DNA of 64,000 bases from positions 77,512 to 141,511 of the forward strand of contig CAKOLI010000001.1 in assembly GCA_934096265.1 (NCBI GenBank). Direction: 5' to 3'. Below, piece after piece: positions 5,652-48,367 of this stretch; position 1 is the stretch's first letter, and every line of letters begins with the position of its first letter. The translations under genes were made by a program, and so were the position numbers. The DNA comes from an uncultured Bacilli bacterium. Lineage in GTDB: Bacteria; Bacillota_I; Bacilli_A; RF39; UBA660. The notes under the pieces are model-generated. The model was not told the DNA's origin, ran no database searches, and saw only the letters and a list, made by a program, of their open reading frames with translations.

Positions 5652-5660
5652 ATTTTAAAA

Positions 5661-5783
5661 GGAGTTGATAGTGATGAGTAGAGTTAATCAAAAGTGTCCT
5701 AAAACCCTTATTTTACTAGGGGGGGGGGCAATTACAAATCCTTATAAATAAAGGGTTTAAGCCTCATTTTAACTATCAAAAAA
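5661..5783 (+). repeat. 123-nt structured intergenic element with G10 tract, copy A
   Basis: Identical to 31801..31923 except 3 mismatches. Nested complementary arms are TTGATAGT(5665-5672)/ACTATCAA(5772-5779), ATGAG/CTCAT and AAACCCTT(5702-5709)/AAGGGTTT(5751-5758). The G10 tract lies at 5719-5728. Confidence 0.85.
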
Positions 5784-5879
5784 ACACATATAAATCTATA
5801 TTAGAGATATAGCTATTTTTAGCTTGTATTTTTAATGTAGATTTTTTTATATTTAAATAAAAGAAGGAGAGTGTTAAAC

Positions 5880-7664
5880 ATGGATAATAATAAAAGAGTA
5901 TACTTAATAATAGGAGTAATAACTATTACAATGTTAGTTATGGGAGTAACAACAGCGTGGTTTACTTGGCATAGTACTACTAATGCAGATGTAACATTTA
6001 ATGTTAATGGATTAGATATTATTAATACTAATGTAGATATAATAGGTAAGAAGTTATATCCTACAAATAATAAAGAAAATGGTATAGTAGAAGAATTTAC
6101 TGTTAAACAAAACAGTGATATATCTACTCCTGTATGTAGTGATTTTACTCTAACATTAACTACATTACCAACTGAGTTACAACATAAGAGTTTTAAGTAT
6201 AAACTATATAATGGAACTAACCTAGTAGGAAGTGGTAACTTTGAAGGCAAGACACAAGGACAAGTAATAACTATTGCAACAAGTCAACCTGTTACAGGTA
6301 ATATTTCTACATATAAGTTATATATCTGGATAGATGGTACTATGGATAATCCATTATCTATGGGAGGAAAAAGCTTTCTATTTAAATTAATTATTAAAGC
6401 AAGTCAACAAGAAAATGCATGTACACCTAGTGTATTACTTGATGACTCTGGTGCAAATATCCCAGTTTTAGCAGAAGGAATGATACCAATAAAGTGGGAT
6501 GGCTCTAAATGGGTAAAGGCATCTACTACCATAGCAGGAGATTGGTATGACTACGATGCTAAGAAATGGGCAAATGCTGTAATGGTTACAAGTGATACAA
6601 GAGATAGTTATATGTCAGATATAACTAAACCAGTAGGTAGTGAAGTATTAGAAAGTGATATCTTAGCTTACTACGTATGGATACCAAGATATAAGTATCA
6701 ACTATTTAATGTGAACTCCGAAAAAATGGACCCAATAGAGATACAAATAGAATTTGAAAGCAAAGATACTACAAAATCAACTGGAAGTACAAATGGAGAG
6801 TGGCTTACCCATCCAGCGTTTACTTTTGGTACTCAAGAACTATCAGGCATCTGGGTAGGTAAGTTTGAAACTAGTGTAGATACCAGTGATACTTGTTATA
6901 TTAATCCATCAAAGACTAACTGTAATAAAGAGTTAAGTAGTCCTAGAATTAAACCAGCTAGAGTTTCCTTAACATATCAAAAAATATCCAATCAATTTTT
7001 AACATCTAAGAAGTTTGGTACTACTAATTATTTAACTACAAATGGAGTAAATCAGGTAGATGCCCATATGATGAAGAATATAGAATGGGGAGCAGTTGCA
7101 TACTTAAAACAAAGTAAATATGGATTAGGTACAACAGATATAGCAAATAATTCATACGATAAAAATTATATTCCATATTATATGACGGGATGTGGACCTA
7201 AGAGTTTAACTGATTATAATAATTCTACTACAACATGTAATGCTTATAATACTGATATTGGTGTTAAGGCTTCTACTACAGGTAATGTATACGGAGTATA
7301 TGATATGGCAGGAGGAGCATGGGAATACGTTATGGGAGTAATGAAAACTAGTGATGGAACCAGATTACTATATGGAGGTTACTCTGGATTTACAACGAGT
7401 ACATTATCTTTAGATAGTAAATATGTAGATGCATATACATATGGAACATCTGGTAGTGATTATACAAGGAGAATCCTAGGAGATGCAACAGGAGAAACAA
7501 GAGGGTGGTATTCAGATGATGCTCGTTTTCCTGTTTCCTCCACTTCGTTCTTCGCACGTGGAGGCTACGGTGGTGGGTCTTACATGGGCGTGTTCTTCTT
7601 CAACGCCTTCGATGGGGATGCGATCAACCTCGGCTCCTTCCGTTCCACCTTGGCAACTCAGTAG
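5880..7664 (+). CDS. secreted surface protein: TasA/SipW-type signal peptide, beta-rich N-domain, C-terminal FGE-sulfatase/C-type-lectin-like domain
   Basis: N-terminus MDNNKRVYLIIGVITITMLVMGVTTAWFTW...ADVTFNVNGLDI resembles TasA (GGTWAAF...DATFASGTLDL). GVYDMAGGAWEYV and the RGG...SFR tail are FGE/CLec hallmarks. The ATG at 5880 follows AAGGAGAG. Confidence 0.75.
   Translation: MDNNKRVYLIIGVITITMLVMGVTTAWFTWHSTTNADVTFNVNGLDIINTNVDIIGKKLYPTNNKENGIVEEFTVKQNSDISTPVCSDFTLTLTTLPTELQHKSFKYKLYNGTNLVGSGNFEGKTQGQVITIATSQPVTGNISTYKLYIWIDGTMDNPLSMGGKSFLFKLIIKASQQENACTPSVLLDDSGANIPVLAEGMIPIKWDGSKWVKASTTIAGDWYDYDAKKWANAVMVTSDTRDSYMSDITKPVGSEVLESDILAYYVWIPRYKYQLFNVNSEKMDPIEIQIEFESKDTTKSTGSTNGEWLTHPAFTFGTQELSGIWVGKFETSVDTSDTCYINPSKTNCNKELSSPRIKPARVSLTYQKISNQFLTSKKFGTTNYLTTNGVNQVDAHMMKNIEWGAVAYLKQSKYGLGTTDIANNSYDKNYIPYYMTGCGPKSLTDYNNSTTTCNAYNTDIGVKASTTGNVYGVYDMAGGAWEYVMGVMKTSDGTRLLYGGYSGFTTSTLSLDSKYVDAYTYGTSGSDYTRRILGDATGETRGWYSDDARFPVSSTSFFARGGYGGGSYMGVFFFNAFDGDAINLGSFRSTLATQ
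7521..7661 (+). other. adenine-poor, NNC-codon-rich segment (DGR variable-region-like)
   Basis: Abrupt switch to TTC/AAC/GCC/ATC/CTC/GGC/TCC codons, with about 17 A in 141 nt by hand count. The stop codon sits in the hairpin TAGGAG-TTA-CTCCTA at 7662-7676. Confidence 0.55.
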
Positions 7665-7674
7665 GAGTTACTCC

Positions 7675-7705
7675 TAAACTTAACACACTTAAAAAATAAA
7701 TATAA
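7675..7705 (+). repeat. imperfect direct repeat, left copy (TAAACTTAACACACT...AAATAAATATA)
   Basis: Matches 9242..9269 (TAAACCTAACACACT..AAATAAATATA). The pair brackets the ISAs1-fragment segment. Confidence 0.55.
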
Positions 7706-8090
7706 ACTTATTTCAATTGATGGTAAAGCAATTAAAAGTGCTACTGATAAAATTAATGGAGGGAATATTCCTTATATAGTTTCAGCTTTTCCATCTGATT
7801 TAGGTATATCAATAGGACAAGTAAAAGTTGATGATAAATCTAATGAAATTACTGCAATACCCGAGTTACTAGATTTAATTGACATAGAAAATTGTATTAT
7901 TACTATAGATGCAATAGGTTGTCAAAAAGATATTGCAAAAAAGATTGTTGATAAGAATGGGCATTATTGTTTTGCAGTTAAAGAAAATAAAAAGAATTTT
8001 TATCGAGATATAAAAGATTATTTTGATTATATTTTAAATAATAATACTGAAAAGCAAAACATAATCAATTATAAGAAAAATCTGTTATAA
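7701..8090 (+). pseudogene. ISAs1-family transposase internal fragment
   Basis: Open frame without a start codon reads ...LISIDGKAIKSATD...VSAFPSDLGISIGQVKVDDKSNEITAIPELLDLIDIENCIITIDAIGCQKDIAKKIV.... This matches the conserved ISAs1 DDE core (SNEITAIPELL, TIDAMGCQ). It spans only ~125 codons. Confidence 0.75.
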
Positions 8091-9304: not shown

Positions 9305-9384
9305 GAAAACTTTATCTATATCTATTTACAAAAAAGATAAAAAAATATATAATTATGTATATAGTAGATAGGAGGATCTTTCAT

Positions 9385-9603
9385 ATGCACTTAAACTTAA
9401 ATAGAAAAGGACAAACCTTAGTAGAATATGTTTTAATTATTTCACTAGTAACTGTATTAGCAATAGGACTAGTAAAATATTTTGGAGGCTATCTTAAAGA
9501 TTCCGTTACTAAAATGAGTTGTAATATGTCTGGCAAAGAGTATGTAGAAGGCAAAAAAGTTGGCGAAGCCTACTGTAGGGGAGACGAAGACCGTATCTCT
9601 TAG
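9385..9603 (+). CDS. flp: Flp/Fap-type pilin
   Basis: MHLNLNRKGQTLVEYVLIISLVTVLAIGLV carries the G/xxxxEY Flp prepilin motif. The ATG at 9385 follows GGAGG. It is the first gene of the tad locus. Confidence 0.75.
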   Translation: MHLNLNRKGQTLVEYVLIISLVTVLAIGLVKYFGGYLKDSVTKMSCNMSGKEYVEGKKVGEAYCRGDEDRIS

Positions 9604-9625
9604 ACTATTAAGGATGTGATTAGTT

Positions 9626-9958
9626 ATGAATAATAAAGGACAAGCATTAATAGAATTTGTTCTTATATTACCTGTTTTTATTATGATGTTATTTCTAGTT
9701 ATAGATTTTGGTAATATATATAGTAAAAAAGCTAATTTAGAAAATGATACTAATGACATTGTATCTTTACTTAAAAATGGTAAAGATTTTAATGAGATAA
9801 AAGAAATATATAAAAATTATATGATTAATATTAGTTATATAGATGATTATGAAAAAGTAACTGTAGTAAATTATGTAGATTTAATTACTCCAGGACTATC
9901 TAAAATAATAAGTAGTCCATATGAAGTAAAAATAGAAAGATATATATATTATGAATAA
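9626..9958 (+). CDS. TadE-like pseudopilin
   Basis: N-terminus NNKGQALIEFVLILPVFIMMLFLVIDFG is the TadE-like motif. Confidence 0.7.
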   Translation: MNNKGQALIEFVLILPVFIMMLFLVIDFGNIYSKKANLENDTNDIVSLLKNGKDFNEIKEIYKNYMINISYIDDYEKVTVVNYVDLITPGLSKIISSPYEVKIERYIYYE

Positions 9959-10325
9959 ACTAAATAATAAAGGACAAGTACTTGTTACTTTTATATGTAT
10001 GTTACCTATACTTATTGCTATTATAGGTGTAGTAGTGGATACTAATAACATGGTATATGAAAAAAGCAAATTAGAAAGTATAAATGTTCTGGCTACTACT
10101 TATTATAAAGAACATATAACAGATATAGACGTAACTAATAAAACAGTTGCTTTAATTAAGAAAAATGATAGTAATATTATTAATATAAATATAGATAAAA
10201 TTAATAAAAAAATATTATTAGATAAGAAAATAGATAGTATTTTTGGTAAAATTATAGGTATTAAAGAATATGAAATTGTAAGTATTTATACCTATCAAGA
10301 TGATATAATTAAAAGAGTAAAGTAG
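9951..10325 (+). CDS. TadE/TadG-like pilus assembly protein
   Basis: N-terminus [27 protein letters not shown]. Overlaps the upstream gene. Confidence 0.6.
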
Positions 10326-10333
10326 GTGTTAAT

Positions 10334-11098
10334 ATGGCTAGTAATTTAGGTAGAGTTATATCTATATCCTCAGTAAAAGGAGGAGTAGGTAAAACAACTT
10401 TTTGTATCAATTTAGCGGGTATACTTCACCTAATGAAAAAGAAAGTATTACTTATAGACTTAGATCTTCACAGTGGAGGACTTGCTACTATCTTAGATAT
10501 CAAAAATAAAAAAGATATCTTCATGCTAGTAGATAGCATTAATAATAATCGTTTTACTACCCTAGGAGACTATGTTACTAAATATAATGATAACATTGAT
10601 GTTTTAGCATGTCCTAAAGATCCTCGTGTTGCAAGTAAGGTAGAATCTAAATACTTACCTCTTATCTTTGATATGGCAAAACATAACTACGATATCATCT
10701 TAGTAGATACCTCTCATATCCTAGATTACATTAATCTAACTATTATGGATTATAGCTACTTAAGCCTATTTATTATTACTAATGATATAGTAGATTTAAA
10801 AAACATGAAAAGCTTAGTAAGTATCTTTAATGATGCATCTAAAACAAACTACTTAACTATATTAAATAACTCAAGAGATACAGGTAAAGACTACTTAACT
10901 AACTATGATATACGTAATATTATTAAATGCAACATAGATTATACTATCTCTAAGAACTTATATATTAAAAATATAGATAAATACATCTTAAATGGAGAAA
11001 TACCCTTAATAAATAAAAATATTATGCGTTTTCATTCTAAAGATGTAGATATAATGAAAAAAATAGCTAATCGCTTATTAGAAGGAGGCATCAAATAA
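10334..11098 (+). CDS. CpaE/TadZ-like ParA/MinD-family ATPase
   Basis: Deviant Walker [11 protein letters not shown]. Position is between the pseudopilins and cpaF. Confidence 0.7.
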
Positions 11099-12423
11099 TG
11101 GCAAAAAAAAGCTTAGTAGAAATATTTGATATAACTCCTAATCAACAAGAATATAAAATTATTAAAGATTATGATATTATACCAGATAAAAAACTACTTG
11201 ATAATCTGAGAAATAAAATTATAACTAACTTAATAGATAATAATATCCCAGATGATAAATTATTAGAACAATATATAAATGATGAAATAGATGAGACCCT
11301 AGTAGGCTATGATTTAGGTACCATAGAAAGAAACCATATCTTTAATTTAATTCAAAATGAAATAAATGGCTATGGTCCTATTACAGAACTATTATCAGAT
11401 GACTCTGTTACCGAAATAATGGTAAATGGACCTGATGAAATATATGTAGAAATAGATGGACGTATTATTAAAGATGATAGTGTATCTTTTATAAATGATA
11501 ACCATATCATAAGAACTATTCAAAGAATAGTACAACCCCTAGGCAGAACAATAGACGCTTCTACCCCCATGGTGGATGCTAGATTAAAAGATGGTTCAAG
11601 ATTAAATGCAATTATTCCACCACTATCTTTAAAAGGACCAGTTCTAACAATAAGAAAATTCTCTAAAAATCTTGCAAACATAGAAGACGTCTTAAGAAAA
11701 GGAACCATGACAATAGACATGGCCAAATTCTTAGAAGCGTCTGTAAAAGCTAAATTAAATATCATTATATGTGGAGGTACTGGTACAGGTAAAACCTCAC
11801 TATTAAATATTCTATCTAGCTTTATAGACGATAGCGAAAGAATAATTACTATAGAAGATGCCGCGGAATTAAGATTACACCAAAACCATGTAATATCCCT
11901 AGAAACTAGATTAGTAGGCTATGAAGGAACTGGTGAAATAACAATACGTGATTTAGTTAGAAACTCCCTTAGAATGAGACCAGATCGTATAATAGTAGGA
12001 GAAGTAAGAGGTAAAGAAGCCTTTGATATGCTACAAGCCATGAATACAGGACACGAAGGCTCATTAAGCACCCTACATGCTAACTCCCCAGAAGATGCCT
12101 TAAATAGACTAGAAACCATGCTACTTATGAATGATATGGAAATACCAGTATCTGCAGCAAGAGGCTACATTGAAAAAGCTATTAACCTAATAGTAAACGT
12201 AGAAAGATTATCTGATGGAAGAAGAAAAGTAACTAGCATAAGCGAAGTAGTAGGCATGGTAGATGGAAATATCAAAATAAAAGAAATATTTGCCTTCAAA
12301 CAAAAAGGCCTAACTAGTAATAATGAAGTAATAGGAGAATTTTTAACATATAAAAGAGTACCTAAAGTATATGACAAAATCAAAAGAGCGGGCATTACCA
12401 CTCTAAAAGACCTATTTGGTTAA
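11098..12423 (+). CDS. cpaF: CpaF/TadA secretion ATPase
   Basis: Walker [10 protein letters not shown], the IIVGEVRG box and a [11 protein letters not shown] His box. Confidence 0.9.
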
Positions 12424-12447
12424 ATATAAATAAAGGAGTTGATAACA

Positions 12448-13452
12448 ATGGATAATAATATTAAATTACTTATATTTCAGGTAATCATTATACTAGTTCT
12501 ATCTATTGTTATCATATACCTAATAAGACAAAACATATCTATTCGTTTTGAAAGAAGAATAGGTAGATACAGCATCTCTCCATTAAAAAGCAAAGATAAA
12601 TCAGTAATGGAAATAATTACCTCAAAATATCATAACCTAATAATTAAATTACGTAAATACATCTCTCGCATATTCCTATTTAGAATTATCTCTAAAAAGT
12701 ATGATAAATATATAACCTATGGAGAAGCAGATAATATATCTGCGATAGACTTTGTAACCCAAAAATTATTTATTGCTACCTCCTTTGTCTTACTAACAAT
12801 ATTCTCTCAAGTACTCCAAACAAGAGTAGTAACTATAATAGAACTAATAATAAACTTTTGCATTGGCTATTATATCTTAGATATATATATGTATTATCAT
12901 CATAAAATGAAATTAAAGAAAATGGAATCTCAAATCTTAAAAGCGGTCATTATTATGAATAATGCTTTTAAAGCGGGCAAATCTACCATTCAAGCCGTAG
13001 AAATAGCTAAAAACAAACTAGAATATCCCTTAAACGTAGAATTTAAAAAAATATATAATGATATAAAATATGGCCTTTCAATAGAAGTAGTATTCCAAAG
13101 ATTTGCCAAAAGAGTAGATATAAAAGAAGTAAAATACTTATCATCTTCACTAACTATCCTAAACAAAACAGGAGGAAACATCGTAGAAGTATTCTCTTCC
13201 ATAGAAAAGTCTTTATTTGATAACAAAAAACTAAAAGAAGAACTAAGAAACTTAACCGTAAGTACCAACCTAGTAGTAAGAATACTCATGTTTTTACCGT
13301 TTATCTTAGTCATGCTAATATATATATTAAACAAAGATTATTTCAACCCACTATTTACATCTATCTTAGGTTATGTTGTATTAGTATTAATATTTACTAT
13401 CTTAATAATGTATATATATTTCTTAGAAAAGATAATGAAAGTTAAGGTGTAA
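12448..13452 (+). CDS. tadB: TadB-like type II secretion F-domain membrane protein
   Basis: Polytopic membrane protein directly after cpaF. The ATG at 12448 follows AAAGGAG. Confidence 0.7.
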   Translation: MDNNIKLLIFQVIIILVLSIVIIYLIRQNISIRFERRIGRYSISPLKSKDKSVMEIITSKYHNLIIKLRKYISRIFLFRIISKKYDKYITYGEADNISAIDFVTQKLFIATSFVLLTIFSQVLQTRVVTIIELIINFCIGYYILDIYMYYHHKMKLKKMESQILKAVIIMNNAFKAGKSTIQAVEIAKNKLEYPLNVEFKKIYNDIKYGLSIEVVFQRFAKRVDIKEVKYLSSSLTILNKTGGNIVEVFSSIEKSLFDNKKLKEELRNLTVSTNLVVRILMFLPFILVMLIYILNKDYFNPLFTSILGYVVLVLIFTILIMYIYFLEKIMKVKV

Positions 13453-13454
13453 CT

Positions 13455-14153
13455 ATGAAGAAAAATGAATTATCTAAAAAAATTTATAACGAAAAAACCA
13501 TCAAAAAAACAGAAAAAAAAATAAAACTACTAGGTTTAAATAACAAAATAGATACTATCGAATTTCTAAATATAAGACTATTTACATCTATAATATTATT
13601 CTTTGTAATCATGTATATAACTTCCTTTGGATATGTCTTAGCTCCAACTATAACATGTGCATATTATCTTTTATGTGATAAAATACTTCTTGATAACAAG
13701 ATTAAAAAAAGAAGAAAAAGCCTAGAAGATGAAGCAATGCATTTCTTTGAAGTATTAACTCTCTCATTACAAACAGGAAGAAACCTAGAAGAAGCCTTTG
13801 TTATAACTACTAATACCGTAGACTCTTCCTTGTCACTAGAATTTAAAGAAGCTCTAAGAGAAGTAAAATACGGTAAAAGTCTAACAGAAGCATTACTATC
13901 TGTCCAAGAAAAAATCCCTTCTGAAACTATAAATAACATTATTCTAACTCTCACTCAAGCGGATTTATACGGAAGTAGCATTATAGATACTATGAATAAT
14001 CAAATAGATTATATTAGAGAAAAAAGAAAACTAGAAATTAAAGCAATGATTTCTAAAGTACCAATAAAAGTTAGTATTATATCAGTATTATTCTTTGTAC
14101 CCTTAATACTATTAATAATACTATCCCCAGTAATATTAACATATATAAGTTAA
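13455..14153 (+). CDS. tadC: TadC-like type II secretion F-domain membrane protein
   Basis: Second F-domain paralogue, with a GKSLTEAL motif region and a C-terminal TM. Confidence 0.7.
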   Translation: MKKNELSKKIYNEKTIKKTEKKIKLLGLNNKIDTIEFLNIRLFTSIILFFVIMYITSFGYVLAPTITCAYYLLCDKILLDNKIKKRRKSLEDEAMHFFEVLTLSLQTGRNLEEAFVITTNTVDSSLSLEFKEALREVKYGKSLTEALLSVQEKIPSETINNIILTLTQADLYGSSIIDTMNNQIDYIREKRKLEIKAMISKVPIKVSIISVLFFVPLILLIILSPVILTYIS

Positions 14154-15119: not shown

Positions 15120-15182
15120 AACAAAAACCCCTTGTTTTATTGCTTAATATGTGGTATATTAAGTATCAGTTTATAAAAACAC

Positions 15183-15407
15183 ACGCGGAAGACGTAGTTA
15201 AAACAAATTATTCATAGAGAACTTTCAAATAGGTGAAAAGAAAGTAATAATCTTTAACTAAAATCACTTCCAATGTTTTTAATTGATATGTAAATTAAAA
15301 CGGCAGTACCGTTATAACTATTAAGAGCGTAGATAATTCTATGAATTTAAGGTGGTACCGCGGAAAGTATAGTTCGTCCTTATACATAATTGTATAAGGA
15401 TTTTTTT
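15183..15407 (+). promoter_or_regulatory. T-box riboswitch, Ile specifier
   Basis: AGAGA and GGTGAAAA stem-I motifs. Candidate specifier is AAA-AUC-A at 15263-15265, just before the CUUCC/GGAAG base helix. T-box sequence AATTTAAGGTGGTACCGCGG. Terminator TCCTTATACA/TGTATAAGGA plus T7. Confidence 0.9.
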
Positions 15408-31800: not shown

Positions 31801-31923
31801 GGAGTTGATAGTGATGAGTAGAGTTAACCAAAAATGTCCTAAAACCCTTATTTTACTAGGGGGGGGGGCAATTACAAAACCTTATAAATAAAGGGTTTAA
31901 GCCTCATTTTAACTATCAAAAAA
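31801..31923 (+). repeat. 123-nt structured intergenic element with G10 tract, copy B
   Basis: 3 mismatches against 5661..5783. G10 at 31859-31868. Confidence 0.85.
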
Positions 31924-32024: not shown

Positions 32025-32422
32025 ATGGATAATAATAAAAGAGTATACTTAATAATAGGAGTAATAACTATCACTATGCTAATAATGGGAGTAACCACTG
32101 CGTGGTTTACTTGGAATAGTAGCATTAATACAGATGTAACATTTAATGTAGAAGGGTTAGATATTACTTATACAGGAGATGAAAATGTTCTAAATAAAAA
32201 GCTATATCCTACAGCATCTATGACTAATACAGATAATGTAATACATAAATTTAGTTTAGTAACTACATCTAATCTAGTTTAGTACAAATAACAACTAATA
32301 TTAATCAACTTGATTTACTTTGCTTTAAAGGAAAAATAAAAAATAAGTTATTTAATTTAAATCTAACTGGAAAAGAAAATATTGATTATAATCTAAATGT
32401 TATAATATCAATTAATATATAA
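32025..32422 (+). pseudogene. short frameshifted paralogue of the 5880..7664 gene (TasA-signal N-domain only)
   Basis: The first ~35 codons are nearly identical to 5880... (MDNNKRVYLIIGVITITMLIMGVTTAWFTW). TAG at 32280. The reading frame continues after a 1-nt shift as ...QITTNINQLDLLCFKGKIKNKLFNLNLTGKENI... to a TAA at 32420-32422. There is no FGE-like domain. Confidence 0.6.
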
Positions 32423-32563: not shown

Positions 32564-33849
32564 ATGAATTTAAATTATGCAATATTTAGAAGTCAACCAA
32601 TCATGACTATAAATAATTTGGCTGGAATAGGTTCTCATAACAAAAGAGAAAAACAGTCATATAAATCTAATCCAGATATTAAAAAAGAAATATCTAGTAA
32701 TAATATGGAATTAGTACCTCTAACATAAAAATATGTTAGAGGTTTTTATAATAAGACAATCGACTATAAAAAAGAATTTGAAGAAAGAATGAAAACAGAG
32801 AGGGAAGATGGGAAAAGAACATTTAGAGAAATGTTAGATAAAAGCAAAAATGTAGTTGCGGATGAACTTTTATTTACTGCAACTAATACTTTCTTTAAAG
32901 ATATGACAAGAGAAGATATAAAAGTTTGGGCTGATACTTGTATAGACTTTGTCTATAATGATTTAGGTTATACGAAATATCAGATATTACATGCAACAAT
33001 ATACTTGGATGAGAAAACTCCACATATTCATTGTGTATTAATCCCAATTGCAAAAAAGTTAGATAAAAGGAGTAATTCTGAAAGATATGCTATTTCAAAG
33101 AAACAATATATTAAAGACAAAAATCATTTATCCGAGTTGCAAGATAAGTATCATAAGAGATTAATTGGTAAAGGATATGATTTAGAAAGAGGAATTAAAA
33201 ATTCTGATAATGAAAATATTAATATAAAAGAGTTCAAAAAGATAACTAGAAAATTAAATAATGAACTAAATGTTAAAAATGAAAGATTAAATAAATCGCT
33301 CGAGGCTTTTAATGAGAAAATGAAAACACTTGTTAAATAAAGAGTATGTAAAAATAAAGAAAGATACTTTTGATAGTATGAACAATGTTATCAAAGAGTC
33401 TAAAAAAGTTATGGATATGCAACCTAAGTTAAATTATAGTTATAAAGAAATAGATTATTGCTCTTATAGTTATAGAAGTATAGAAAGACAGAAAAATAAT
33501 TTAGAAAATGAGATAGAATATTTGCAGTATAAGAATGAAAAGTTGGAAAATGAAAATAGAACTTTAAAAAACAAAAAAAAGCTATTTTAAAGGCAATAAA
33601 AACGTTTTTTAGACAGATACTATTATATTTGGTAATGATAAGGCAAAAGAAGCAACTACTAACGAAATAATAGCACATTATGATAATAAAAACTTTACTA
33701 GAAAAGATGTAGTTAATATATCATTAGATACTACAAAGGAAGATGAGTTATTTAATTATGTTGGAGTTGAAAAAGAATATGTTCGAATGAAACATTCGGA
33801 ATTAGATTATGATAGTAAGGGAAAAGATGATTTTGAATTAAGTAGATAA
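32564..33849 (+). pseudogene. MobV (Mob_Pre, pMV158 MobM-like) relaxase, decayed
   Basis: N-terminus MNLNYAIFRSQPIMTINNLAGIGSHNKRE. In-frame TAA at 32726-32728. Metal motif HATIYLDEKTPHIHCVLIP (HxDE...PHxH). Frame changes near 33330 and 33590 (track ORFs 32789..33340 and 33330..33590). Confidence 0.7.
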
Positions 33850-41520: not shown

Positions 41521-44010
41521 ATGTTAGGCAAAAGATTTAATCTTGAAAATGAAAAGGAAATGCAAAAATTATGGGAAGAAAAAGAAGCCTATAAATTTAA
41601 AGGTGTAGATGAACGACCAGTTTATTCAGTCGATACACCTCCTCCAACAGTAAGCGGTAAGTTACATGTTGGACATATATTTTCATTCACTCAATCTGAA
41701 ATGCTTGTTAGGTATCACAGATTAAAAGGTGAAAATGTATATTATCCATTTGGATTTGATGACAATGGTTTGCCAACAGAAAGATTGGTTGAAAGAGAAG
41801 AGGGTATATTTGCAAAAGATTTACCTAGAAGTGAATTTATTGAAAAATGTACTGCTACAAAAGATAAATATATTAAAGAATTCCAAGATTTATTTAAGCG
41901 TTTAGGAATCAGTGCTGATTGGGATTTGGGATATGATACTATAAATGAATTGTCTAGAAAAGTTTCACAAAGATCATTTATAGATTTAGTAAAAAAAGGA
42001 AAAGCGTATAGAAAGGAAATGCCAGTTTTATGGTGTCCTTGCTGCCAAACTTCTATTGCACAAGCAGAACTTGAAAATAAAGATGTAAAAAGTTATTTCA
42101 ATTATATTAATTTTTCTGTTGATAATAAAGATTTAGAAATAGCTACAACAAGACCTGAGTTTTTAGGTGGATGTGTTGCAATATTTGTAAATCCTAATGA
42201 TGAAAGATATAAAGATTTAATAGGAAAAACTGCTACTGTTCCGTTATATAATAATCAAGTTCCAATCATTGCAGATGAAAAAGTTGCAATAGACAAAGGT
42301 ACTGGCGCTGTTATGTGCTGTACATTTGGAGATCAAACTGATATGGAATGGCAAAAAGAATATAATCTTCCAATTAAGAAAGTAATGCAGGCTGATGGAA
42401 CAATTAATCCAGAAGTTGCTATAATTGGTGGAATGAAAACGCTTGATGCAAGGATGAAGATTGTTGAAAAATTACAAAAACAAGGTCTATTAGTAAAAAG
42501 TGAAAAAATTGAACATTCTGTAAGTACGCATGAGAGATGTGGAAATGAAATAGAAATAATTAATTCTCCACAATGGTACATTGACATTTTAAGTATAAAA
42601 GATGAATTGATTAAAGCAGCAGATGAAATTAATTGGCATCCAGAATCTATGAAAACTAGATATTTAGATTGGGTTAGCAATTTAAAATGGGATTGGTGCA
42701 TATCAAGGCAAAGATATTTTGGAGTACCATTTCCAGTATGGTATTGTAAAGAATGTGGAGATGTAATGATTTCTGAAGATAAAGAATTACCATTAAATCC
42801 ATTAGAACATAACCCACATGGTGCTTGTAAGTGTGGATGTAAGGAATTTATACCTGAAACTGCTGTAATGGATACATGGGCAACATCATCTGTATCACCA
42901 TTCATTAATATGAAATATGGTGAAGATGACGAAAGAAAATTTTTATATCCTATGAGTATGAGAAGCCATGCACATGAAATAATAAGAACGTGGACATTCT
43001 ATTCAATTGTAAAAAGTTTATATCATACTGGACAAGTACCTTGGAAAGATTTAATGATTTCAGGATTTGTACTTGCTAAAAAAGGCGAGAAAATAAGCAA
43101 ATCTAAAAATAATGCTAAGATGTCTCCTAATGACTTATTAGATACTTATGGTGCTGATATGATAAGATATTGGACTGCATCAAATAAATTAGGAACAGAT
43201 ACATGGTTTGATACAAAAGATATAGAAAGTTCAAAGAGATTTATGAACAAATTATGGAATTCTGCTAAATTTGTAGATATACACATCAAGGATGCTGATT
43301 TAAGTGAAGAAGCAGAATTGCAATCTATTGATAAATGGTTAATCTCTAGATGTCACGAAACATTTGAAAAATATCAACAACAAATGGAAAATTATGAAAT
43401 GGGCTTAGCAAGACAAGAAATTGATAAATTTTTCTGGAACGATTTATGTGATAATTATTTAGAAATGGCAAAAGAAAGATTATATAATCCTGATAATAAA
43501 TATGGAGATTCCCAAAAAGCTGCTCAACAAACTTTAGCAACTGTATTCCTTGAAGTATTAAAAATGTATTCACCTTTTGTTCCACATATTACAGAATATA
43601 TTTATCAAGAATTCTATAAATCTAAACTTAAAGATGAACTTCTTTCTACAAGTAAATTCACAGAGTTACCTTATGATAAAAAATATATAGAATTTGGTGA
43701 TGCAATGAAAAAAGTAGTAGGAGATGTTCGTAAATATAAAACTGAACGTAATTTATCAATGAAAAAACCAATTGAAGAATTGAAAATATCAACGACATTG
43801 GATAATATTAGATGTTTAAGAGATTCAATTTTAGATATTCAAAGTTGTACTCGTGCTGAACATATTGACGTTGAGGAAAGTGATGAAACAGAAGTAACAA
43901 TTACTGGAAGAAATATTGAAGATAGTTACGTAGAAGATGCAATAGATGCACCAGTTCAAGAAGAAGCAAAAGTTATGAAACTTGTTAGAAAAGATAAGAA
44001 AAATCAATAA
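41521..44010 (+). CDS. valS: valine--tRNA ligase, copy 1 (PPPTVSG / CTFGDQTD type)
   Basis: 829 aa. DTPPPTVSGKLHVGHIFSF (HIGH), ATTRPE and GTGAVMCCTFGDQTD in CP1/editing, KISKSKNN (KMSKS), Zn cysteines and an acidic C-terminal tail. Confidence 0.85.
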   Translation: MLGKRFNLENEKEMQKLWEEKEAYKFKGVDERPVYSVDTPPPTVSGKLHVGHIFSFTQSEMLVRYHRLKGENVYYPFGFDDNGLPTERLVEREEGIFAKDLPRSEFIEKCTATKDKYIKEFQDLFKRLGISADWDLGYDTINELSRKVSQRSFIDLVKKGKAYRKEMPVLWCPCCQTSIAQAELENKDVKSYFNYINFSVDNKDLEIATTRPEFLGGCVAIFVNPNDERYKDLIGKTATVPLYNNQVPIIADEKVAIDKGTGAVMCCTFGDQTDMEWQKEYNLPIKKVMQADGTINPEVAIIGGMKTLDARMKIVEKLQKQGLLVKSEKIEHSVSTHERCGNEIEIINSPQWYIDILSIKDELIKAADEINWHPESMKTRYLDWVSNLKWDWCISRQRYFGVPFPVWYCKECGDVMISEDKELPLNPLEHNPHGACKCGCKEFIPETAVMDTWATSSVSPFINMKYGEDDERKFLYPMSMRSHAHEIIRTWTFYSIVKSLYHTGQVPWKDLMISGFVLAKKGEKISKSKNNAKMSPNDLLDTYGADMIRYWTASNKLGTDTWFDTKDIESSKRFMNKLWNSAKFVDIHIKDADLSEEAELQSIDKWLISRCHETFEKYQQQMENYEMGLARQEIDKFFWNDLCDNYLEMAKERLYNPDNKYGDSQKAAQQTLATVFLEVLKMYSPFVPHITEYIYQEFYKSKLKDELLSTSKFTELPYDKKYIEFGDAMKKVVGDVRKYKTERNLSMKKPIEELKISTTLDNIRCLRDSILDIQSCTRAEHIDVEESDETEVTITGRNIEDSYVEDAIDAPVQEEAKVMKLVRKDKKNQ

Positions 44011-44083
44011 AACTTATCTTTTTTTCTGCAATTTATCTAATTTTATTGAATATATAAGGAAAATCTGGTATAATATTTGCAAC

Positions 44084-44311
44084 TGCTGAGAACAAGAGGA
44101 GTAGATTACCAATTTATTATAGAGAGCAAATGTTTGGTGTAAATTTGCATAATAGGTAATTGAAGGTAGCTTGGGAGCATATTTTCTGAACTATTAGTAA
44201 GAAATTACGTATCGCTGCGTTAAAGCATTAAGCTGCATATTAATAAAATAATATGAATTAAGGTGGTACCGTGGACTTCAAGTTCATCCTTTGATTAGGA
44301 TGGGCTTTTTT
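44084..44311 (+). promoter_or_regulatory. T-box riboswitch, probable Val (GUA) specifier
   Basis: Promoter TTGAAT-17-TGGTATAAT (44046-44074). AGAGAG and GGTGTAAA stem-I motifs. Specifier loop UGAAG-GUA-G (GUA at 44166-44168) lies before the CUUG/CAAG helix. T-box GAATTAAGGTGGTACCGTGG. Terminator CATCCT/AGGATG plus a T run. Confidence 0.85.
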
Positions 44312-44332: not shown

Positions 44333-46750
44333 ATGTTAGATAAGAAGTACAATTCACTTGAAAAAGAAGAAAAATGGTTAAATTATTGGAAAGAAAATAA
44401 AATATATGAATTTAAACCAGATCAAAGAAAGGTATATTCAATAGATACACCTCCTCCAACAGTTAATGGTAAAATACATATTGGGCATATATTTTCTTAT
44501 TCACAAGCAGAAATGATTGCAAGATATAAAAGAATAAGCGGATATAATGTGTTTTATCCATTTGGCTTTGATGATAATGGCCTTCCTAGTGAAAGATTAG
44601 TAGAAAAGGAACAAGGTAAAAAAGCACATGAAATTGGTAGAGAAAACTTCTCTAAATTATGCTATGAAACAACAGACAAATATGAAGCTGAATTTCAAGA
44701 TTTATTCTCTAAACTTGGTGTAAGTACAGATTGGAGTATGCACTATAAAACAGTAAGCCCATCAACAATAAAGATAAGTCAAAATTCATTTTTGGATTTA
44801 ATAGAGAAAGGACATTGTTATCATAAAGAAAGCCCTGCATTATGGTGTAATGAATGCTTAACATCCATTGCTCAGGCTGAATTAGAAACAAAGACCATTA
44901 AAACAACATTTAATTATGTAAATTTTGAAACTGTCGAAGACGGTGAAAAGTTTACTATTGCTACAACAAGACCTGAATTGATGCCTGCCATTGTTTGTGT
45001 ATTTGTAAATCCTAATGATGAGAAGAATAAACATTTAATAGGAAAAACTGCACATATTCCAGTAATTAATGTTGATGTTCCAATTATGGGTGATGAAAAA
45101 GTTGCAATTGATAAGGGTACAGGTATTGTTATGTGCTGTACATTTGGAGATCAAACAGATATAGAATGGTGGAAAAAATATAATTTACCACTTAAATATA
45201 TATTTACAAATGATGGAAAAATAATTGATTCTGTGCCAAATTATGGTGGCTTAAAAATAAAAGAAGCAAGAAAGCAAATCGTAAATGATTTACAAGCAGG
45301 TGGATACATTGTTAAAATTGAAGAGTTAGAACATGAAGTACAAACACATGAAAGATGTGGCAGAGAAGTAGAATATACGTTAATGAAACAATGGTTTATT
45401 GATATAATGAGCCATAAAGAAGATTTCTTGAGAATTGGAAATGAAATTAATTGGTATCCGTCACACATGCACAACAGATATGAAGAATGGGTTAATAATG
45501 TTGCATGGGATTGGTGCATATCAAGACAAAGATATTTTGGTGTACCATTTCCAGTATGGTACTGTAAAGAATGTGGTGAACCTATATTTGTATCAAAAGA
45601 ACAATTACCTGTTAATCCGTTAACTGATACTCCACCAGTTGAAAAATGTTCTAAGTGTGGCTGTAAAGAGTTTATACCTGAATCCGATGTTATGGATACG
45701 TGGGCAACTTCATCAGTTACACCACTTATTAATATGAAATATGGCGAAAAAGATAATTACGAATCTATTTTAAAACCTATGAGTTTGCGTAGTAATGCGT
45801 CTGAAATAATAAGAACTTGGGATTTTTATACTATTGTAAAAAGTTATTATCATTTTGGTATTAGACCTTGGGATAATGTTATGATTTCAGGATTCGTAAT
45901 GGCAAACAAAGGTGAAAAAATAAGTAAAAGTAAGGGAAATTCAAAAGTTGAGCCTTTAGATTTAATAAAACGATATTCTGCAGATGTTGTAAGATATTGG
46001 GCTGCATCTGGAAGGTTAGGAACAGACATTACATATAGTGAAGAAACATTACTTCGTGGTAAAAAATTAGTTAATAAAATATGGAATGTTTCTAAATTAA
46101 TTCAAATGCACCTTCAAGATTATCAAGATAAAGACTTTGATGATTTTGAATATGTTGATAAATGGATCTTAGGTAACTTTATTAAGATGGAAAAAGAATA
46201 TATAAAATATTTAGATAATTATGAAATAGGATTAGCTTTAAATATTTTAGAAAAGTTTTTCTGGAATTTCTGTGATAACTATATAGAAATTGTTAAACAT
46301 AGATTGTATAGACCAGAAGAATTCGGTGAAAAGGCAAGATACTCTGGACAAAAAACTGTCTATATGTTACTTTATAAATTATTACAAGATTTTAGCGTTT
46401 TCTTCCCATTCATTACTGAAGAAATATATCAAGACATATATCATGATATGAAATCAATACATATTACTGAAATTAAACCTTTAAATTACTCATTTGATGA
46501 TGAAATGTTGAATGGTGATTTAATGTGTGAAATAATAAGTGCAGTAAGAGGTGAAAAGTCTAGTAACAATTTATCATTAAAAACAACTGTTAAGAAATTA
46601 GATATAGATTGTTCAGCTGGCATAAAAGATGCAATTAAGCAATCTGAGAAAGATTTTAAAGCAACATTATTTATAGAAAAATTAATTTTAAATGACATAG
46701 AAAAAGACTATAAAATTAATAAAGTTGTTTTAGATACTGAAAATTCATAA
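44333..46750 (+). CDS. valS: valine--tRNA ligase, copy 2 (T-box regulated)
   Basis: 805 aa. DTPPPTVNGKIHIGHIFSY, ATTRPE, GTGIVMCCTFGDQTD and KISKSKGN. Roughly 55-60 percent identical to copy 1 by eye. Confidence 0.88.
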   Translation: MLDKKYNSLEKEEKWLNYWKENKIYEFKPDQRKVYSIDTPPPTVNGKIHIGHIFSYSQAEMIARYKRISGYNVFYPFGFDDNGLPSERLVEKEQGKKAHEIGRENFSKLCYETTDKYEAEFQDLFSKLGVSTDWSMHYKTVSPSTIKISQNSFLDLIEKGHCYHKESPALWCNECLTSIAQAELETKTIKTTFNYVNFETVEDGEKFTIATTRPELMPAIVCVFVNPNDEKNKHLIGKTAHIPVINVDVPIMGDEKVAIDKGTGIVMCCTFGDQTDIEWWKKYNLPLKYIFTNDGKIIDSVPNYGGLKIKEARKQIVNDLQAGGYIVKIEELEHEVQTHERCGREVEYTLMKQWFIDIMSHKEDFLRIGNEINWYPSHMHNRYEEWVNNVAWDWCISRQRYFGVPFPVWYCKECGEPIFVSKEQLPVNPLTDTPPVEKCSKCGCKEFIPESDVMDTWATSSVTPLINMKYGEKDNYESILKPMSLRSNASEIIRTWDFYTIVKSYYHFGIRPWDNVMISGFVMANKGEKISKSKGNSKVEPLDLIKRYSADVVRYWAASGRLGTDITYSEETLLRGKKLVNKIWNVSKLIQMHLQDYQDKDFDDFEYVDKWILGNFIKMEKEYIKYLDNYEIGLALNILEKFFWNFCDNYIEIVKHRLYRPEEFGEKARYSGQKTVYMLLYKLLQDFSVFFPFITEEIYQDIYHDMKSIHITEIKPLNYSFDDEMLNGDLMCEIISAVRGEKSSNNLSLKTTVKKLDIDCSAGIKDAIKQSEKDFKATLFIEKLILNDIEKDYKINKVVLDTENS

Positions 46751-47478: not shown

Positions 47479-47910
47479 CTAATGATTTTTTATTATTTCA
47501 TCAACAGAACAATTAAAGTTTTTTGCTAATTTATAAATATAAACTGTTGGTATTAATATTATTCCTAATTCATATTGAGTATAAGCTGATACTGAAATTT
47601 TTAAAATTTTCGCAATCTCTTTTTGAGTTAGATTTACTTTTTTTCTTAATAAACGCAAATTATTTCCAATCACTTTGATAGTTATATTTTTAACTGGATA
47701 TTCAAAATTATTGATTTTTGACAGTCCAGTTATGTAATCAATGCTACATTTATAATAATTACTTAATAAAAATAATTTTCTTAGTGGAATTATATTAGTT
47801 CCTAATTCCCATCCTGTATATGTAGTTCTACTAACTCCCAATATTTTTGCTATTTCTTCTTGAGTTAGGCTGTTTTCTAATCTCAATTTTTTGATATTTT
47901 TGAACTTCAT
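47479..47910 (-). CDS. XRE-family regulator with two tandem HTH domains
   Basis: LTQEEIAKILGVSRTTYTGWELG and LTQKEIAKILKISVSAYTQYELG. Confidence 0.8.
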   Translation of the reverse strand: MKFKNIKKLRLENSLTQEEIAKILGVSRTTYTGWELGTNIIPLRKLFLLSNYYKCSIDYITGLSKINNFEYPVKNITIKVIGNNLRLLRKKVNLTQKEIAKILKISVSAYTQYELGIILIPTVYIYKLAKNFNCSVDEIIKNH

Positions 47911-47920
47911 ATTTTCTCCA

Positions 47921-48367
47921 TTAGTTTAAATCTTTGTCTTTAGTTCTACCAACTATCCAATCCATTGAAATTTTATATTTTTTGCATATAGTGTAGATAG
48001 TTATTGTGTTGACTAAGTAATTACCAGTTTCGTAACCACTATAAGTTGTTTGAGATATGTTACAATCATCTGCTAATTTTTGTTGTGAAATATTTAATTC
48101 TTTTCTTAAATTTTTTAAGTTTTTACCGATTTTATTTTTATCACACTCAATTTTAGGATATTTTTTATTTTTTCTTGTAAGACCGGAAATATAATCTAAT
48201 GAATAACCATATAAATTAGAAAATCTAATAAGTTTATTAAAAGGTATGGTATCACCAGCAGTCTCCCATCCTGAAATTGTTTGTTTTGTTACTCCAAAGA
48301 TGTATCCTAATTCTGTTTGAGTCATTTCTAATTCTTCTCTACAAAATTTTATATTGTTGTTATACAT
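47921..48367 (-). CDS. XRE-family regulator with two tandem HTH domains (paralogue)
   Basis: MTQTELGYIFGVTKQTISGWE and ISQQKLADDCNISQTTYSGYETG. Confidence 0.8.
   Translation of the reverse strand: MYNNNIKFCREELEMTQTELGYIFGVTKQTISGWETAGDTIPFNKLIRFSNLYGYSLDYISGLTRKNKKYPKIECDKNKIGKNLKNLRKELNISQQKLADDCNISQTTYSGYETGNYLVNTITIYTICKKYKISMDWIVGRTKDKDLN

What the first reader, a model, noticed from the sequence alone, without database searches (positions are those of the whole stretch)
7521..7676. Probable DGR variable region at the 3' end of a TasA-signal / FGE-like surface protein gene, with no template repeat or reverse transcriptase in the window
Seen: the last ~47 codons of ORF 5880..7664 drop the gene's A/T-ending codon usage. 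They read GCT CGT TTT CCT GTT TCC TCC ACT TCG TTC TTC GCA CGT GGA GGC TAC GGT GGT GGG TCT TAC ATG GGC GTG TTC TTC TTC AAC GCC TTC GAT GGG GAT GCG ATC AAC CTC GGC TCC TTC CGT TCC ACC TTG GCA ACT CAG. By hand count only about 17 of 141 nt are A, whereas A is the commonest base in the preceding 1.6 kb of the same ORF. The patch is GC-rich enough to create a spurious alternative-frame ORF (7483..7677). It encodes the RGG...G.F.F...SFR tail after GVYDMAGGAWEYV, the C-terminal part of an FGE-sulfatase/C-type-lectin fold. The TAG stop sits in the hairpin TAGGAG-TTA-CTCCTA (7662-7676). Established: DGR variable regions are ~100-150 bp and lie at the extreme 3' end of CLec/FGE-fold target genes. They vary only where the template repeat has A (typically AAC codons giving NNC), avoid A at invariant positions, and are followed by a short hairpin that aids retrohoming. 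Inference: this is a DGR VR. TR, Avd and RT are absent from the 64 kb, and the DNA immediately downstream is a secondary insertion. The cassette may therefore have been displaced, lost, or may act in trans.
Basis: partly seen in the sequence, partly recalled or inferred. Interest (0 to 1): 0.8.

Follow-up and report, generated by a model that had tools for sequence, protein, structure and literature searches.

The report
Frozen DGR variable region, cassette unseen
The odd GC-rich, adenine-poor tail of this surface-protein gene carries the marks of a diversity-generating retroelement (a reverse-transcriptase system that rewrites a protein's binding site), but this copy no longer varies between strains, lacks the downstream hairpin such systems use, and its template and enzyme are nowhere in the window, so it is a fairly ordinary, probably stranded, example of a known mechanism.

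Summary
Window 7521-7661 has 17 A in 141 nt and 56% GC, the most extreme 141-nt stretch in the 64 kb. GC3 is 64% there against 17% in the gene body.

DGR origin is well supported. Eight same-species paralog tails share an invariant scaffold with no A in 45 invariant columns, interrupted by NNC/NNT codons. TRs from related DGRs mismatch this VR about 70% at their A sites and about 27% elsewhere. Homologous targets in Clostridia MAGs have canonical VR/TR + RT + bAvd + MutS-like cassettes.

No TR, RT or Avd lies in the window or within 10 kb of ten related loci. The cognate TR was not found in any searchable collection.

The window copy is static. Window, L001 and L028 have identical VR DNA, L026/L027 differ by 2 nt, and five protein variants share the tail, while the gene body differs by about 40 nt.

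Sibling alleles carry a GRNA-loop hairpin about 29 nt after the stop. The window lacks it and has a truncated transposase fragment there instead.

Verdict: a DGR-written remote VR, now probably stranded. New member of a known kind, modest interest.

The parts
5655..5879 (+). Conserved leader shared by all paralog loci. It includes a 25-codon small ORF with an RBS (5674-5751, MSRVNQKCPKTLILLGGGAITNPYK*) whose Gly codons form a G10 run (5719-5728).
   Evidence: Alignment of upstream regions from nine copies; small-ORF translations; G-run survey; no Rfam match.
5880..7664 (+). Target gene, 594 aa. It has an N-terminal hydrophobic helix, a beta-sandwich domain (about residues 39-176), and a C-terminal FGE-sulfatase/C-type-lectin-like domain ending in the VR.
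   Evidence: ORF and translation; identical to database protein P0121. Pfam FGE-sulfatase E = 0.0025, below the curated cut-off. Family profile hits PDB 5VF4, the TaqVP DGR variable protein, at E = 0.006. 30-35% identity over residues ~195-592 to targets of canonical DGRs. The AF2 model is confident only for the N-terminal domain.
7518..7637 (+). Variable region proper: NNC/NNT codons set in an A-free invariant scaffold (TTT..TCG TTC TTC..CGT GG. GGC..GGG TCT..GCG GGC GTG TTC..TTC..GGG..GCG).
   Evidence: Composition; 8-VR codon alignment with 0 A in 45 invariant columns; mismatch enrichment at A sites of heterologous TRs.
7638..7664 (+). Invariant 3' block TTC CGT TCC ACC TTG GCA ACT CAG TAG. 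It is IMH-like: it contains A residues that never vary.
   Evidence: From TCC ACC to ACT (window 7644-7658) it is identical in all eight GC-rich same-species tails. Upstream, TTC/TTT, CGT/CGC and L024a CAC vary; L024a also ends TAC TAG and L002 stops with TAA.
7653..7676 (+).
   Evidence: DNA folds. In the intact siblings the first repeat is the one predicted. The window fold has z = -1.23.
7665..7689 (+). Remnant (about 25 nt) of the ~95-nt downstream element that loci A and B conserve. Similarity ends near 7690, before the position of the GRNA-loop hairpin.
   Evidence: Alignments. The hairpin sequence is absent from the whole window at up to 3 mismatches and present in L002, L003, L004 and L013.
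7716..8088 (+). Internal fragment of a DDE transposase gene with no start codon. It occupies the place where sibling alleles carry the hairpin.
   Evidence: Translation; Pfam DDE_Tnp_1 E = 7e-8, profile positions 39-125 of 200; present in all strain variants examined.

Best explanation
Window 7518-7637 is a variable region written by mutagenic retrohoming from a diversity-generating retroelement, and the cassette (template repeat, reverse transcriptase, Avd) lies outside this window. The gene is one of at least eight scattered paralogous cassettes in one low-GC gut Firmicute species. Each cassette has a conserved leader with a 25-codon ORF, a secreted two-domain protein and a VR. In intact copies an invariant 3' block and a GRNA-loop hairpin follow about 29 nt after the stop.

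A single TR would serve all copies in trans. It would keep A only where variation is wanted, which would explain a scaffold without A and the GC-rich codons in a 28% GC genome.

In the window copy a rearrangement linked to a now-truncated transposase removed the downstream hairpin. The VR has not changed among sampled strains. It is therefore most likely a recently stranded VR whose composition has not yet drifted back to the genome's AT-richness.

Shown: the composition, the scaffold and variable-codon pattern, homology to bona fide DGR targets, absence of the cassette from the window, absence of the hairpin, and stasis between strains.

Inferred: that one trans-acting TR wrote it, and that hairpin loss (or loss of the cassette) is why it is static.
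For: 1. The composition and codon switch is the most extreme in the window.
2. About 8000 homologs share ...RILGDATGE..GWY.D...F..S..[SW]F.RGG......AGVF.F.....G.......[SA]FRS, with unrelated residues at the intervening positions.
3. In eight tails from loci of the same species, the 45 invariant VR columns are T19, C13, G13 and A0, although the gene body is 39% A. Variable codons are NNC/NNT.
4. TRs of four other DGRs aligned to this VR mismatch at 68-76% of their A sites against 26-29% of other sites (Fisher p = 9e-6 and 9e-7 for the two tested, L006 and L017).
5. Homologous targets in L006 and L009 sit in canonical DGRs. These have a VR/TR pair differing mainly at TR adenines, plus RVT_1 RT, bAvd and a MutS_I accessory protein.
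6. The family profile hits the TaqVP DGR variable protein 5VF4.
7. Alleles L002, L003 and L013 carry GGCAAAATGGCT-GACA-AGCCACTTTTGCC 29 nt after the stop (fold z = -2.5 to -3.6). Its 4-nt GRNA loop and its distance (4-34 bp) match what Guo et al. 2011 (PMC3240598) report. The stem is longer and less GC-rich than the 7-10 bp GC-rich stems they describe.
8. A decay series is visible. There are intact copies, then copies with a GC-rich VR but no hairpin (window, L014, L029, L031). L024a is partly decayed, and L024b, L023 and L003b have AT-normal tails.
9. The paralogs stand alone at unrelated chromosomal sites. This fits known remote-target DGRs (PMC5758913).
Against: - The cognate TR and RT were not found in the window, within 10 kb of ten related loci, or in IMG/VR.
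- They were also not found in GTDB genomes, JGI metagenomes, as a called TR-ORF, or among the top 120 relatives of a related RT. The direct A-to-N test is therefore missing.
- Stasis is not specific to hairpin-less copies. The hairpin-bearing allele cluster P0006 is equally static, so hairpin loss is not shown to be the cause.
- Locus M alleles lack the hairpin yet carry different VRs.
- Synonymous-codon identity between paralogs is only slightly higher in the tail than in the body, so recent overwriting by a common TR is not proven.
- The gene bodies are mosaic between strains. Recombination among paralogs could therefore also move VR segments.
Confidence: 0.7

Rival explanations
1. Live remote target. 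The VR is still served in trans by a DGR cassette elsewhere in the same genome. It looks static because homing is rare, regulated, or the current binding site is under purifying selection. The short inverted repeats at the stop codon would suffice for target recognition.
For: - The VR keeps the full scaffold and the invariant 3' block.
- The two nucleotide differences seen in strains L026/L027 (7626 A>G, 7630 T>G) both fall at positions 1-2 of NNC codons predicted to derive from TR adenines.
- At locus A, alleles L002 and L003 of the same species (flanks 98.6-99.6% identical) are nearly identical for 200 nt upstream. They share the 5' third of the VR and differ at NNC codons in the 3' two thirds, as partial homing would give.
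- Remote targets more than 100 kb from the RT are documented (PMC5758913).
- Hairpin-bearing alleles are just as static.
Against: - Window, L001 and L028 have identical VR DNA and L026/L027 differ by 2 nt. Five protein variants from several human samples share the tail, apart from the N583D/L584R pair, while the body differs by 39-41 nt.
- The GRNA-loop hairpin, whose removal reduced BPP-1 homing to undetectable levels (PMC3240598), is absent.
- No cassette was found anywhere that could be searched.
- Two differences at variable positions have a chance probability of about 0.08, by my own estimate of (40/141) squared.
Confidence: 0.22
2. No retroelement was involved at this copy. The tail is a mosaic patch brought in by recombination or gene conversion from a paralog or a foreign GC-richer homolog, and the family-wide pattern reflects shuffling of old alleles.
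For: Strain comparisons show patchy divergence in this gene family. 34 of 39 differences between two strains lie in 5951-6248. L002 and L003 differ by 20-28% in some 100-nt bins and 0% in others. Whole alleles of different length (594, 600, 712 aa) occupy one locus in one species.
Against: - Gene conversion may have moved the patch, but it does not explain its properties: zero A at 45 invariant columns, variation limited to NNC/NNT codons, and mismatches concentrated at A sites of independent TRs.
- No GC-rich donor with near-identical nucleotides appeared in any scan.
- Related proteins sit in canonical DGRs.
Confidence: 0.06
3. The composition is a by-product of the amino-acid content (Gly, Phe, Ser, Arg) or of a structural constraint on the lectin-fold tail.
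For: The tail is rich in G, F and S. The scaffold residues are conserved across about 8000 homologs.
Against: Synonymous choices flip for the same amino acids: TTT to TTC, AGA to CGT, GGA to GGC/GGG. Paralog tails L024b, L023 and L003b encode homologous tails, with partly conserved scaffold residues, using AT-rich codons.
Confidence: 0.02

Closest known systems
Treponema denticola DGR (TvpA plus remote targets) and other 'Lineage 4' chromosomal DGRs with remote targets (Wu et al. 2018, PMC5758913)
   Same: Chromosomal, not phage-borne. Several paralogous FGE-sulfatase/C-type-lectin targets are scattered far from the RT, with the VR at the extreme C-terminus. One TR is presumed to serve all copies in trans.
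   Different: Here the RT/TR was not located at all. At least five GC-rich and three AT-normal tails were seen in one species, against seven non-adjacent targets reported as the maximum. Each copy carries a conserved leader with a G10-containing small ORF. This copy lacks the target hairpin.
Bordetella phage BPP-1 DGR target architecture (mtd VR, IMH, hairpin/cruciform; Guo et al. 2011, PMC3240598)
   Same: The VR ends in an invariant block. In sibling alleles it is followed, at 29 nt, by an inverted repeat with a 4-nt GRNA loop (GACA), inside the reported 4-34 bp range.
   Different: The sibling stem is longer (12-13 bp with a bulge) and less GC-rich than the 7-10 bp GC-rich stems described. 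In the window the hairpin is gone. The target is a cellular secreted protein, not a phage tail fibre.
Gut Clostridia DGRs found here (L006 on CAKNIZ010000001.1; L009 on CANRFX010000039.1), with MutS-like (MSL) + bAvd + RT
   Same: Their target C-terminal domains are 30-32% identical to residues ~195-592 of the window protein. Their TR/VR share the motifs FF.RGG...AGVF...FR. Their TRs predict the variable codons of the window VR.
   Different: Their cassette is adjacent (TR about 300 nt after the VR). Their 3' blocks differ (FRVVLGG...), so they are not the cognate element.
TaqVP, Thermus aquaticus DGR variable protein (PDB 5VF4; PMC6328139)
   Same: It is the only solved structure hit by the family profile (E = 0.006), over the conserved core of the C-type-lectin/FGE-like domain (profile positions 371-468).
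   Different: The match is weak and partial. The fold of the window protein's C-terminal domain could not be modelled with confidence (pLDDT below 50).

Membership tests
DGR variable region / target gene | VR of about 100-150 bp at the 3' end of an ORF, in a C-type-lectin/FGE-sulfatase-fold domain | tested here: met
   The VR at 7518-7637 ends 27 nt before the stop. Pfam FGE-sulfatase E = 0.0025, below the cut-off. Profile hit to DGR protein 5VF4. 30-35% identity to targets of canonical DGRs. The fold itself was not confirmed because the AF2 model is poor.
DGR variable region / target gene | A cognate template repeat that differs from the VR only, or nearly only, at TR adenines | tested here: inconclusive
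   No TR in the window, in ten related loci, or in any scanned collection. Indirect tests are positive: invariant VR columns contain no A, and heterologous TRs mismatch preferentially at A.
DGR variable region / target gene | Variation confined to codons that are AAY in the template (NNC/NNT), with an invariant scaffold between them | tested here: met
   Eight same-species VRs; 120 homolog tails.
DGR variable region / target gene | Invariant IMH-like 3' end followed within 4-34 bp by a hairpin/cruciform with a 4-nt GRNA loop | tested here: not met
   The invariant 3' block is present (7638-7664). The GRNA-loop hairpin is absent from the whole window. It is present in sibling alleles L002, L003, L004 and L013. 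Criteria from PMC3240598.
DGR variable region / target gene | Hypervariation of the VR between closely related strains or within populations | tested here: not met
   0-2 nt differences in the VR against 39-41 in the gene body. 0-2 aa against up to 43 in 9 of 11 protein clusters. Read-level variation could not be tested.
Complete DGR cassette | DGR-clade reverse transcriptase (RVT_1) near the TR | tested here: not met
   No RVT_1 in the Pfam scans of 56 window ORFs. No tblastn match to two DGR RTs in the window or in L001-L004. The rest of the genome could not be searched.
Complete DGR cassette | Accessory protein (Avd/bAvd, HRDC, MSL or CH1) | tested here: not met
   No bAvd or MutS_I small protein in the window. 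The 125-aa ORF after locus A alleles is not Avd.
SipW/TasA-type secreted protein | SipW-cognate signal peptide and TasA/camelysin-like domain | tested here: inconclusive
   No NCBIfam family at E <= 1 and no Pfam TasA hit. The AF2 N-terminal beta-sandwich (pLDDT 75-88) has as its best PDB match an archaeal bundling pilin, 7ueg, at TM 0.35. I recall that pilin being described as TasA-like, which is from memory and not tested.

The most novel reading that the evidence does not exclude
One uncultured low-GC gut Firmicute species carries eight or more dispersed copies of a complete 'variation cassette'. Each has a conserved leader whose 25-codon ORF contains a G10 slippage-prone run, a secreted protein joining a pilin-like or carbohydrate-binding-like domain to a lectin-fold domain, a DGR variable region and a GRNA-loop target hairpin.

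A single unseen trans-acting DGR would diversify the binding sites. The poly-G leader would switch individual copies on and off, and recombination would shuffle bodies between loci. The copies would show the whole life cycle of a VR: live, then hairpin lost (the window copy), then drifted to AT-rich codons.
Probability: 0.3. Interest if true: 0.55.

Novelty: new member of a known kind. Interest (0 to 1): 0.33.

Why it matters
DGRs are the only known prokaryotic system for targeted protein hypervariation, and gut microbes carry many of them. This locus adds a clear case of a remote DGR-type variable region recognisable from composition alone, in a genome where the cassette is far away or gone.

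The set of sibling copies also gives a natural series. It runs from intact targets to hairpin-less copies to fully AT-normalised tails. That series could be used to ask how long a VR keeps its template-imposed composition after homing stops, and whether hairpin loss is the usual first step.

In practical terms, scans based on an A-poor 3' tail can find DGR targets that cassette-centred tools (which need RT and TR nearby) would miss. The mechanism itself is not new.

Tried and rejected
Searches for the template repeat:
- A TR in the window, by blastn with word size 7 and by an ungapped scan that allows any mismatch at candidate-TR adenines. Nothing was found on either strand.
- A TR in related loci. 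Only the VRs themselves matched.
- Four pattern scans of IMG/VR (scaffold, predicted TR, 3' block, hairpin), all empty.
- A GTDB genome scan with the scaffold pattern. It found related DGRs but no genome of this clade.
- A JGI metagenome scan with an AAY-rich predicted TR. It found TRs of other DGR lineages only.
- A protein search with the predicted TR translation, in case the TR had been called as an ORF. It returned TR-ORFs of other lineages; the closest ends ...NSFRSILATM.
- Phage collection searches by DNA and by protein. The only hits were generic TR similarity in Pseudoalteromonas phages.

Searches for the RT and Avd:
- A profile search with the L006/L009 RTs gave 3463 relatives. None of the 120 listed sits on a contig whose length matches a contig of this species.
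- Twelve contig look-ups around paralogs found no cassette within 10 kb.
- The idea that the 125-aa ORF after locus A is Avd was rejected.

Other tests:
- Structure prediction of the whole protein gave a C-terminal domain with pLDDT below 50. The lectin fold could therefore not be tested by fold search.
- Concerted evolution was tested through synonymous-codon identity, tail against body. The difference is too small to claim.
- Attributing VR stasis to hairpin loss alone was weakened, because hairpin-bearing alleles are also static.
Full report
**Observation.**
- Window 7521-7661 contains 17 A, 43 C, 36 G and 45 T. It has the lowest A fraction (12.1%) and the highest GC (56.0%) of all 141-nt windows in the 64 kb.
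- The preceding 1641 nt of the same ORF are 38.7% A and 32.1% GC.
- The shift is at the level of synonymous codons. GC3 is 64% in the last 47 codons against 17% in the body (p = 1.5e-11). Phe is TTT 16/16 in the body and TTC 7/8 in the tail, and Arg goes from AGR 9/9 to CGT 3/3.
- The alternative-frame ORF 7483..7677 and the inverted repeat at 7662-7676 are present. The repeat's folding energy is unremarkable (z = -1.23).

**The gene.**
- ORF 5880-7664 encodes 594 aa, identical to database protein P0121.
- Pfam gives only a sub-threshold FGE-sulfatase match (E = 0.0025). NCBIfam gives nothing.
- A profile of 37 homologs hits one solved structure, 5VF4 (E = 0.006). This is the Thermus aquaticus DGR variable protein TaqVP (PMC6328139).
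- An AlphaFold model is confident only for an N-terminal beta-sandwich. Its best PDB match is an archaeal bundling pilin, and the match is weak. The C-terminal domain was not modelled usefully.

**Marks of a DGR variable region.**
- About 8000 homologs exist. Their tails share an invariant scaffold, with unrelated residues at fixed intervening positions.
- I collected eight GC-rich tails from paralogous or allelic loci. Their flanks are 96.5-99.6% identical where comparable.
- One of these loci, L031, comes from the same sample at the same coverage (6.6x) as a strain of the window locus, L028. I therefore treat them as one species.
- In the VR core of these eight tails, the 45 invariant nucleotide columns are T19, C13, G13 and A0. 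The variable codons are NNC/NNT.
- TRs from four other DGRs, aligned to the window VR, mismatch at 68-76% of their A sites and 26-29% of other sites (Fisher p = 9e-6 and 9e-7 for the two tested).
- The GTDB scan found homologous targets (30-32% identity over residues ~195-592) inside canonical DGRs. In L006 and L009 a VR is followed about 300 nt later by a TR that differs mainly at TR adenines (L009 has one T/C exception). Next to it are an RVT_1 reverse transcriptase, a bAvd protein and a MutS-domain-I accessory protein. The last is the MSL class of Wu et al. 2018 (PMC5758913).

**Where is the cassette?** It is not in the window.
- There is no TR-like copy on either strand.
- There is no tblastn match to two DGR RTs or Avds.
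- No RVT_1 or bAvd turned up among the 56 window ORFs scanned with Pfam, which cover nearly all non-overlapping ORFs of at least 100 aa.
- It is also not within 10 kb of any related locus examined.
- The cognate TR was not found in IMG/VR, GTDB genomes, JGI metagenomes, as a called ORF, among relatives of a related RT, or in phage records.
- The clade's genomes appear to be missing from the collections that can be scanned by DNA pattern. This absence therefore says little about the organism itself.

**A family of dispersed cassettes.** The same species carries copies at these sites:
- the window locus (between a thioredoxin gene and a histidine phosphatase/Tad pilus operon);
- locus A (PriA/ABC/HAD side);
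- locus B (next to BipA);
- locus M (before mraZ);
- locus S (before sspI);
- further copies with AT-normal tails.

Alleles L002, L003 and L013 keep about 95 conserved nucleotides after the stop. These include GGCAAAATGGCT-GACA-AGCCACTTTTGCC at 29 nt (fold z = -2.5 to -3.6).

Guo et al. 2011 (PMC3240598) report 7-10 bp GC-rich stems, 4-nt GRNA loops and distances of 4-34 bp. They also report that removing the structure abolishes detectable homing in BPP-1. The sibling hairpin matches in loop and distance, but its stem is longer and less GC-rich.

The window keeps only about 25 nt of this element. Similarity ends near 7690, the hairpin is absent from the whole window, and an internal DDE transposase fragment follows at 7716-8088. 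Allele L031 lost the same hairpin through a clean 33-nt deletion. The copies thus form a series:
- intact: L002, L003, L013;
- GC-rich VR but no hairpin: window, L031, L014, L029;
- partly decayed: L024a;
- AT-normal: L024b, L023, L003b.

**Is it varying now?** No.
- Five protein variants of the window gene differ at 1-13 residues outside the tail and at 0-2 inside it.
- At the DNA level, strain L028 differs from the window at 39 sites in the gene body and 0 in the VR. Strains L026 and L027 differ at 41 sites in the body and 2 in the VR (7626 A>G, 7630 T>G, both at positions 1-2 of NNC codons).
- The transposase fragment is present in all of these strains.
- Nine of eleven homolog clusters show the same stasis, including the hairpin-bearing allele cluster P0006. 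Hairpin loss alone is therefore not shown to be the cause.
- At locus A, L002 and L003 have near-identical DNA for 200 nt upstream. The 5' third of the VR is identical, and there are about 20 mismatches at NNC codons in the 3' two thirds. This fits partial homing. However, these genes are also recombination mosaics, which could give the same picture.

**Most likely mechanism.** A chromosomal DGR acting in trans wrote this VR and its siblings.
- The TR keeps adenines only at positions meant to vary. This would impose an A-free, C/G/T scaffold on every VR it overwrites.
- The window copy has since lost its downstream recognition structure to a transposase-associated rearrangement. It has stayed fixed in the population.
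- Its composition has not yet relaxed, so the loss is recent relative to mutational drift.
- Whether the cassette still exists in this genome is unknown.
- I put 0.7 on this reading. I put 0.22 on a still-live remote target, and under 0.1 on non-DGR explanations.

**Comparison and novelty.** Remote, multi-copy FGE/lectin-fold DGR targets are known. Examples are Treponema denticola and the Lineage 4 chromosomal DGRs, where seven non-adjacent targets is the reported maximum (PMC5758913). Functionally this is the same kind of object.
- As a member of 'DGR target', it meets the position, domain, scaffold and variable-codon criteria.
- It fails the hairpin and strain-variation criteria.
- It cannot be tested for the cognate TR.
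- I therefore file it as a new member of a known kind: a probably stranded remote VR.
- Interest is modest (0.33). The side observations below raise the ceiling somewhat if they hold.

**Limits.**
- No read data and no whole genome were available.
- The same-species assignment rests on flank identity and on shared sample and coverage.
- The inferred TR is my reconstruction, not an observed sequence.

Noticed in passing
window 5655-5879 (small ORF 5674-5751, G10 at 5719-5728); second copy 31814-31891 (G10 at 31859-31868); also L002, L003, L013, L014, L024, L029, L031 upstream of each paralog: Every paralog is preceded by a roughly 230-nt conserved leader. It contains a 25-codon ORF with an RBS (MSKVNQKCPKTLILLGGGAITKPYK*) whose Gly codons form a G10 run. 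These two runs are the only G/C homopolymers of 8 or more in the 64 kb. L013 has G11 plus a compensating 1-nt deletion that restores the ...PYK* ending, which suggests the ORF is read. This could be a phase-variation or leader-peptide control. There is no Rfam match.
   Followed up: partly
window 5951-6248: 34 of the 39 nucleotide differences between the window strain and strain L028 in this gene fall in about 300 nt encoding the N-terminal beta-sandwich (about 11% divergence). Most flanking 500-nt bins differ by 0-1.4%. This looks like a recombination or gene-conversion patch, or diversifying selection, in the non-DGR end of the protein. Locus A alleles show the same mosaic pattern.
   Followed up: partly
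window 32025-32276 and 32789-33340: There is a fragment 61% identical to residues 1-81 of the target protein, preceded by its own copy of the leader small ORF. A partial Mob_Pre plasmid-recombination-enzyme ORF follows. This looks like a truncated paralog next to a mobile-element remnant.
   Followed up: partly
L002 2014-3627, L003 44-1393, L031 2239-3636: A protein with the same leader and a homologous N-terminal domain (47-49% identity to target residues 1-183) carries an LRR_5 C-terminal domain instead of the lectin-fold/VR domain. The N-terminal module is therefore shared by different binding domains.
   Followed up: no
window 9355-14153: A Tad/Flp-type pilus operon (Flp-like pilin, TadE-like proteins, CpaE-like ATPase, CpaF, TadB/TadC) starts about 1.7 kb downstream of the target gene. 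Other paralogs are not next to such operons, so the adjacency is probably coincidental.
   Followed up: partly
window 41521-44010, 44333-46750, 54709-57099; T-box leaders 15174-15384 and 44079-44294: Two class I aminoacyl-tRNA synthetase paralogs (829 and 805 aa) sit in tandem. The second has its own T-box leader. A separate LeuRS with a full editing domain lies at 54709-57099, and IleS has a T-box at 15174. The tandem pair looks like a duplicated synthetase.
   Followed up: no
window 49061-50076 (- strand): Split insertion-sequence remnants (rve_3 integrase core and HTH_Tnp_1 ORFs) lie next to two double-HTH regulators (47479-48367). Together with the DDE fragment at 7716-8088, this indicates past IS activity in the region.
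   Followed up: no
L006 4487-6560 and L009 2898-5140: In the related canonical DGRs the TR lies on the strand opposite to the MSL-bAvd-RT operon, converging on it. It is on the same strand as the target gene, about 300 nt after the VR.
   Followed up: no
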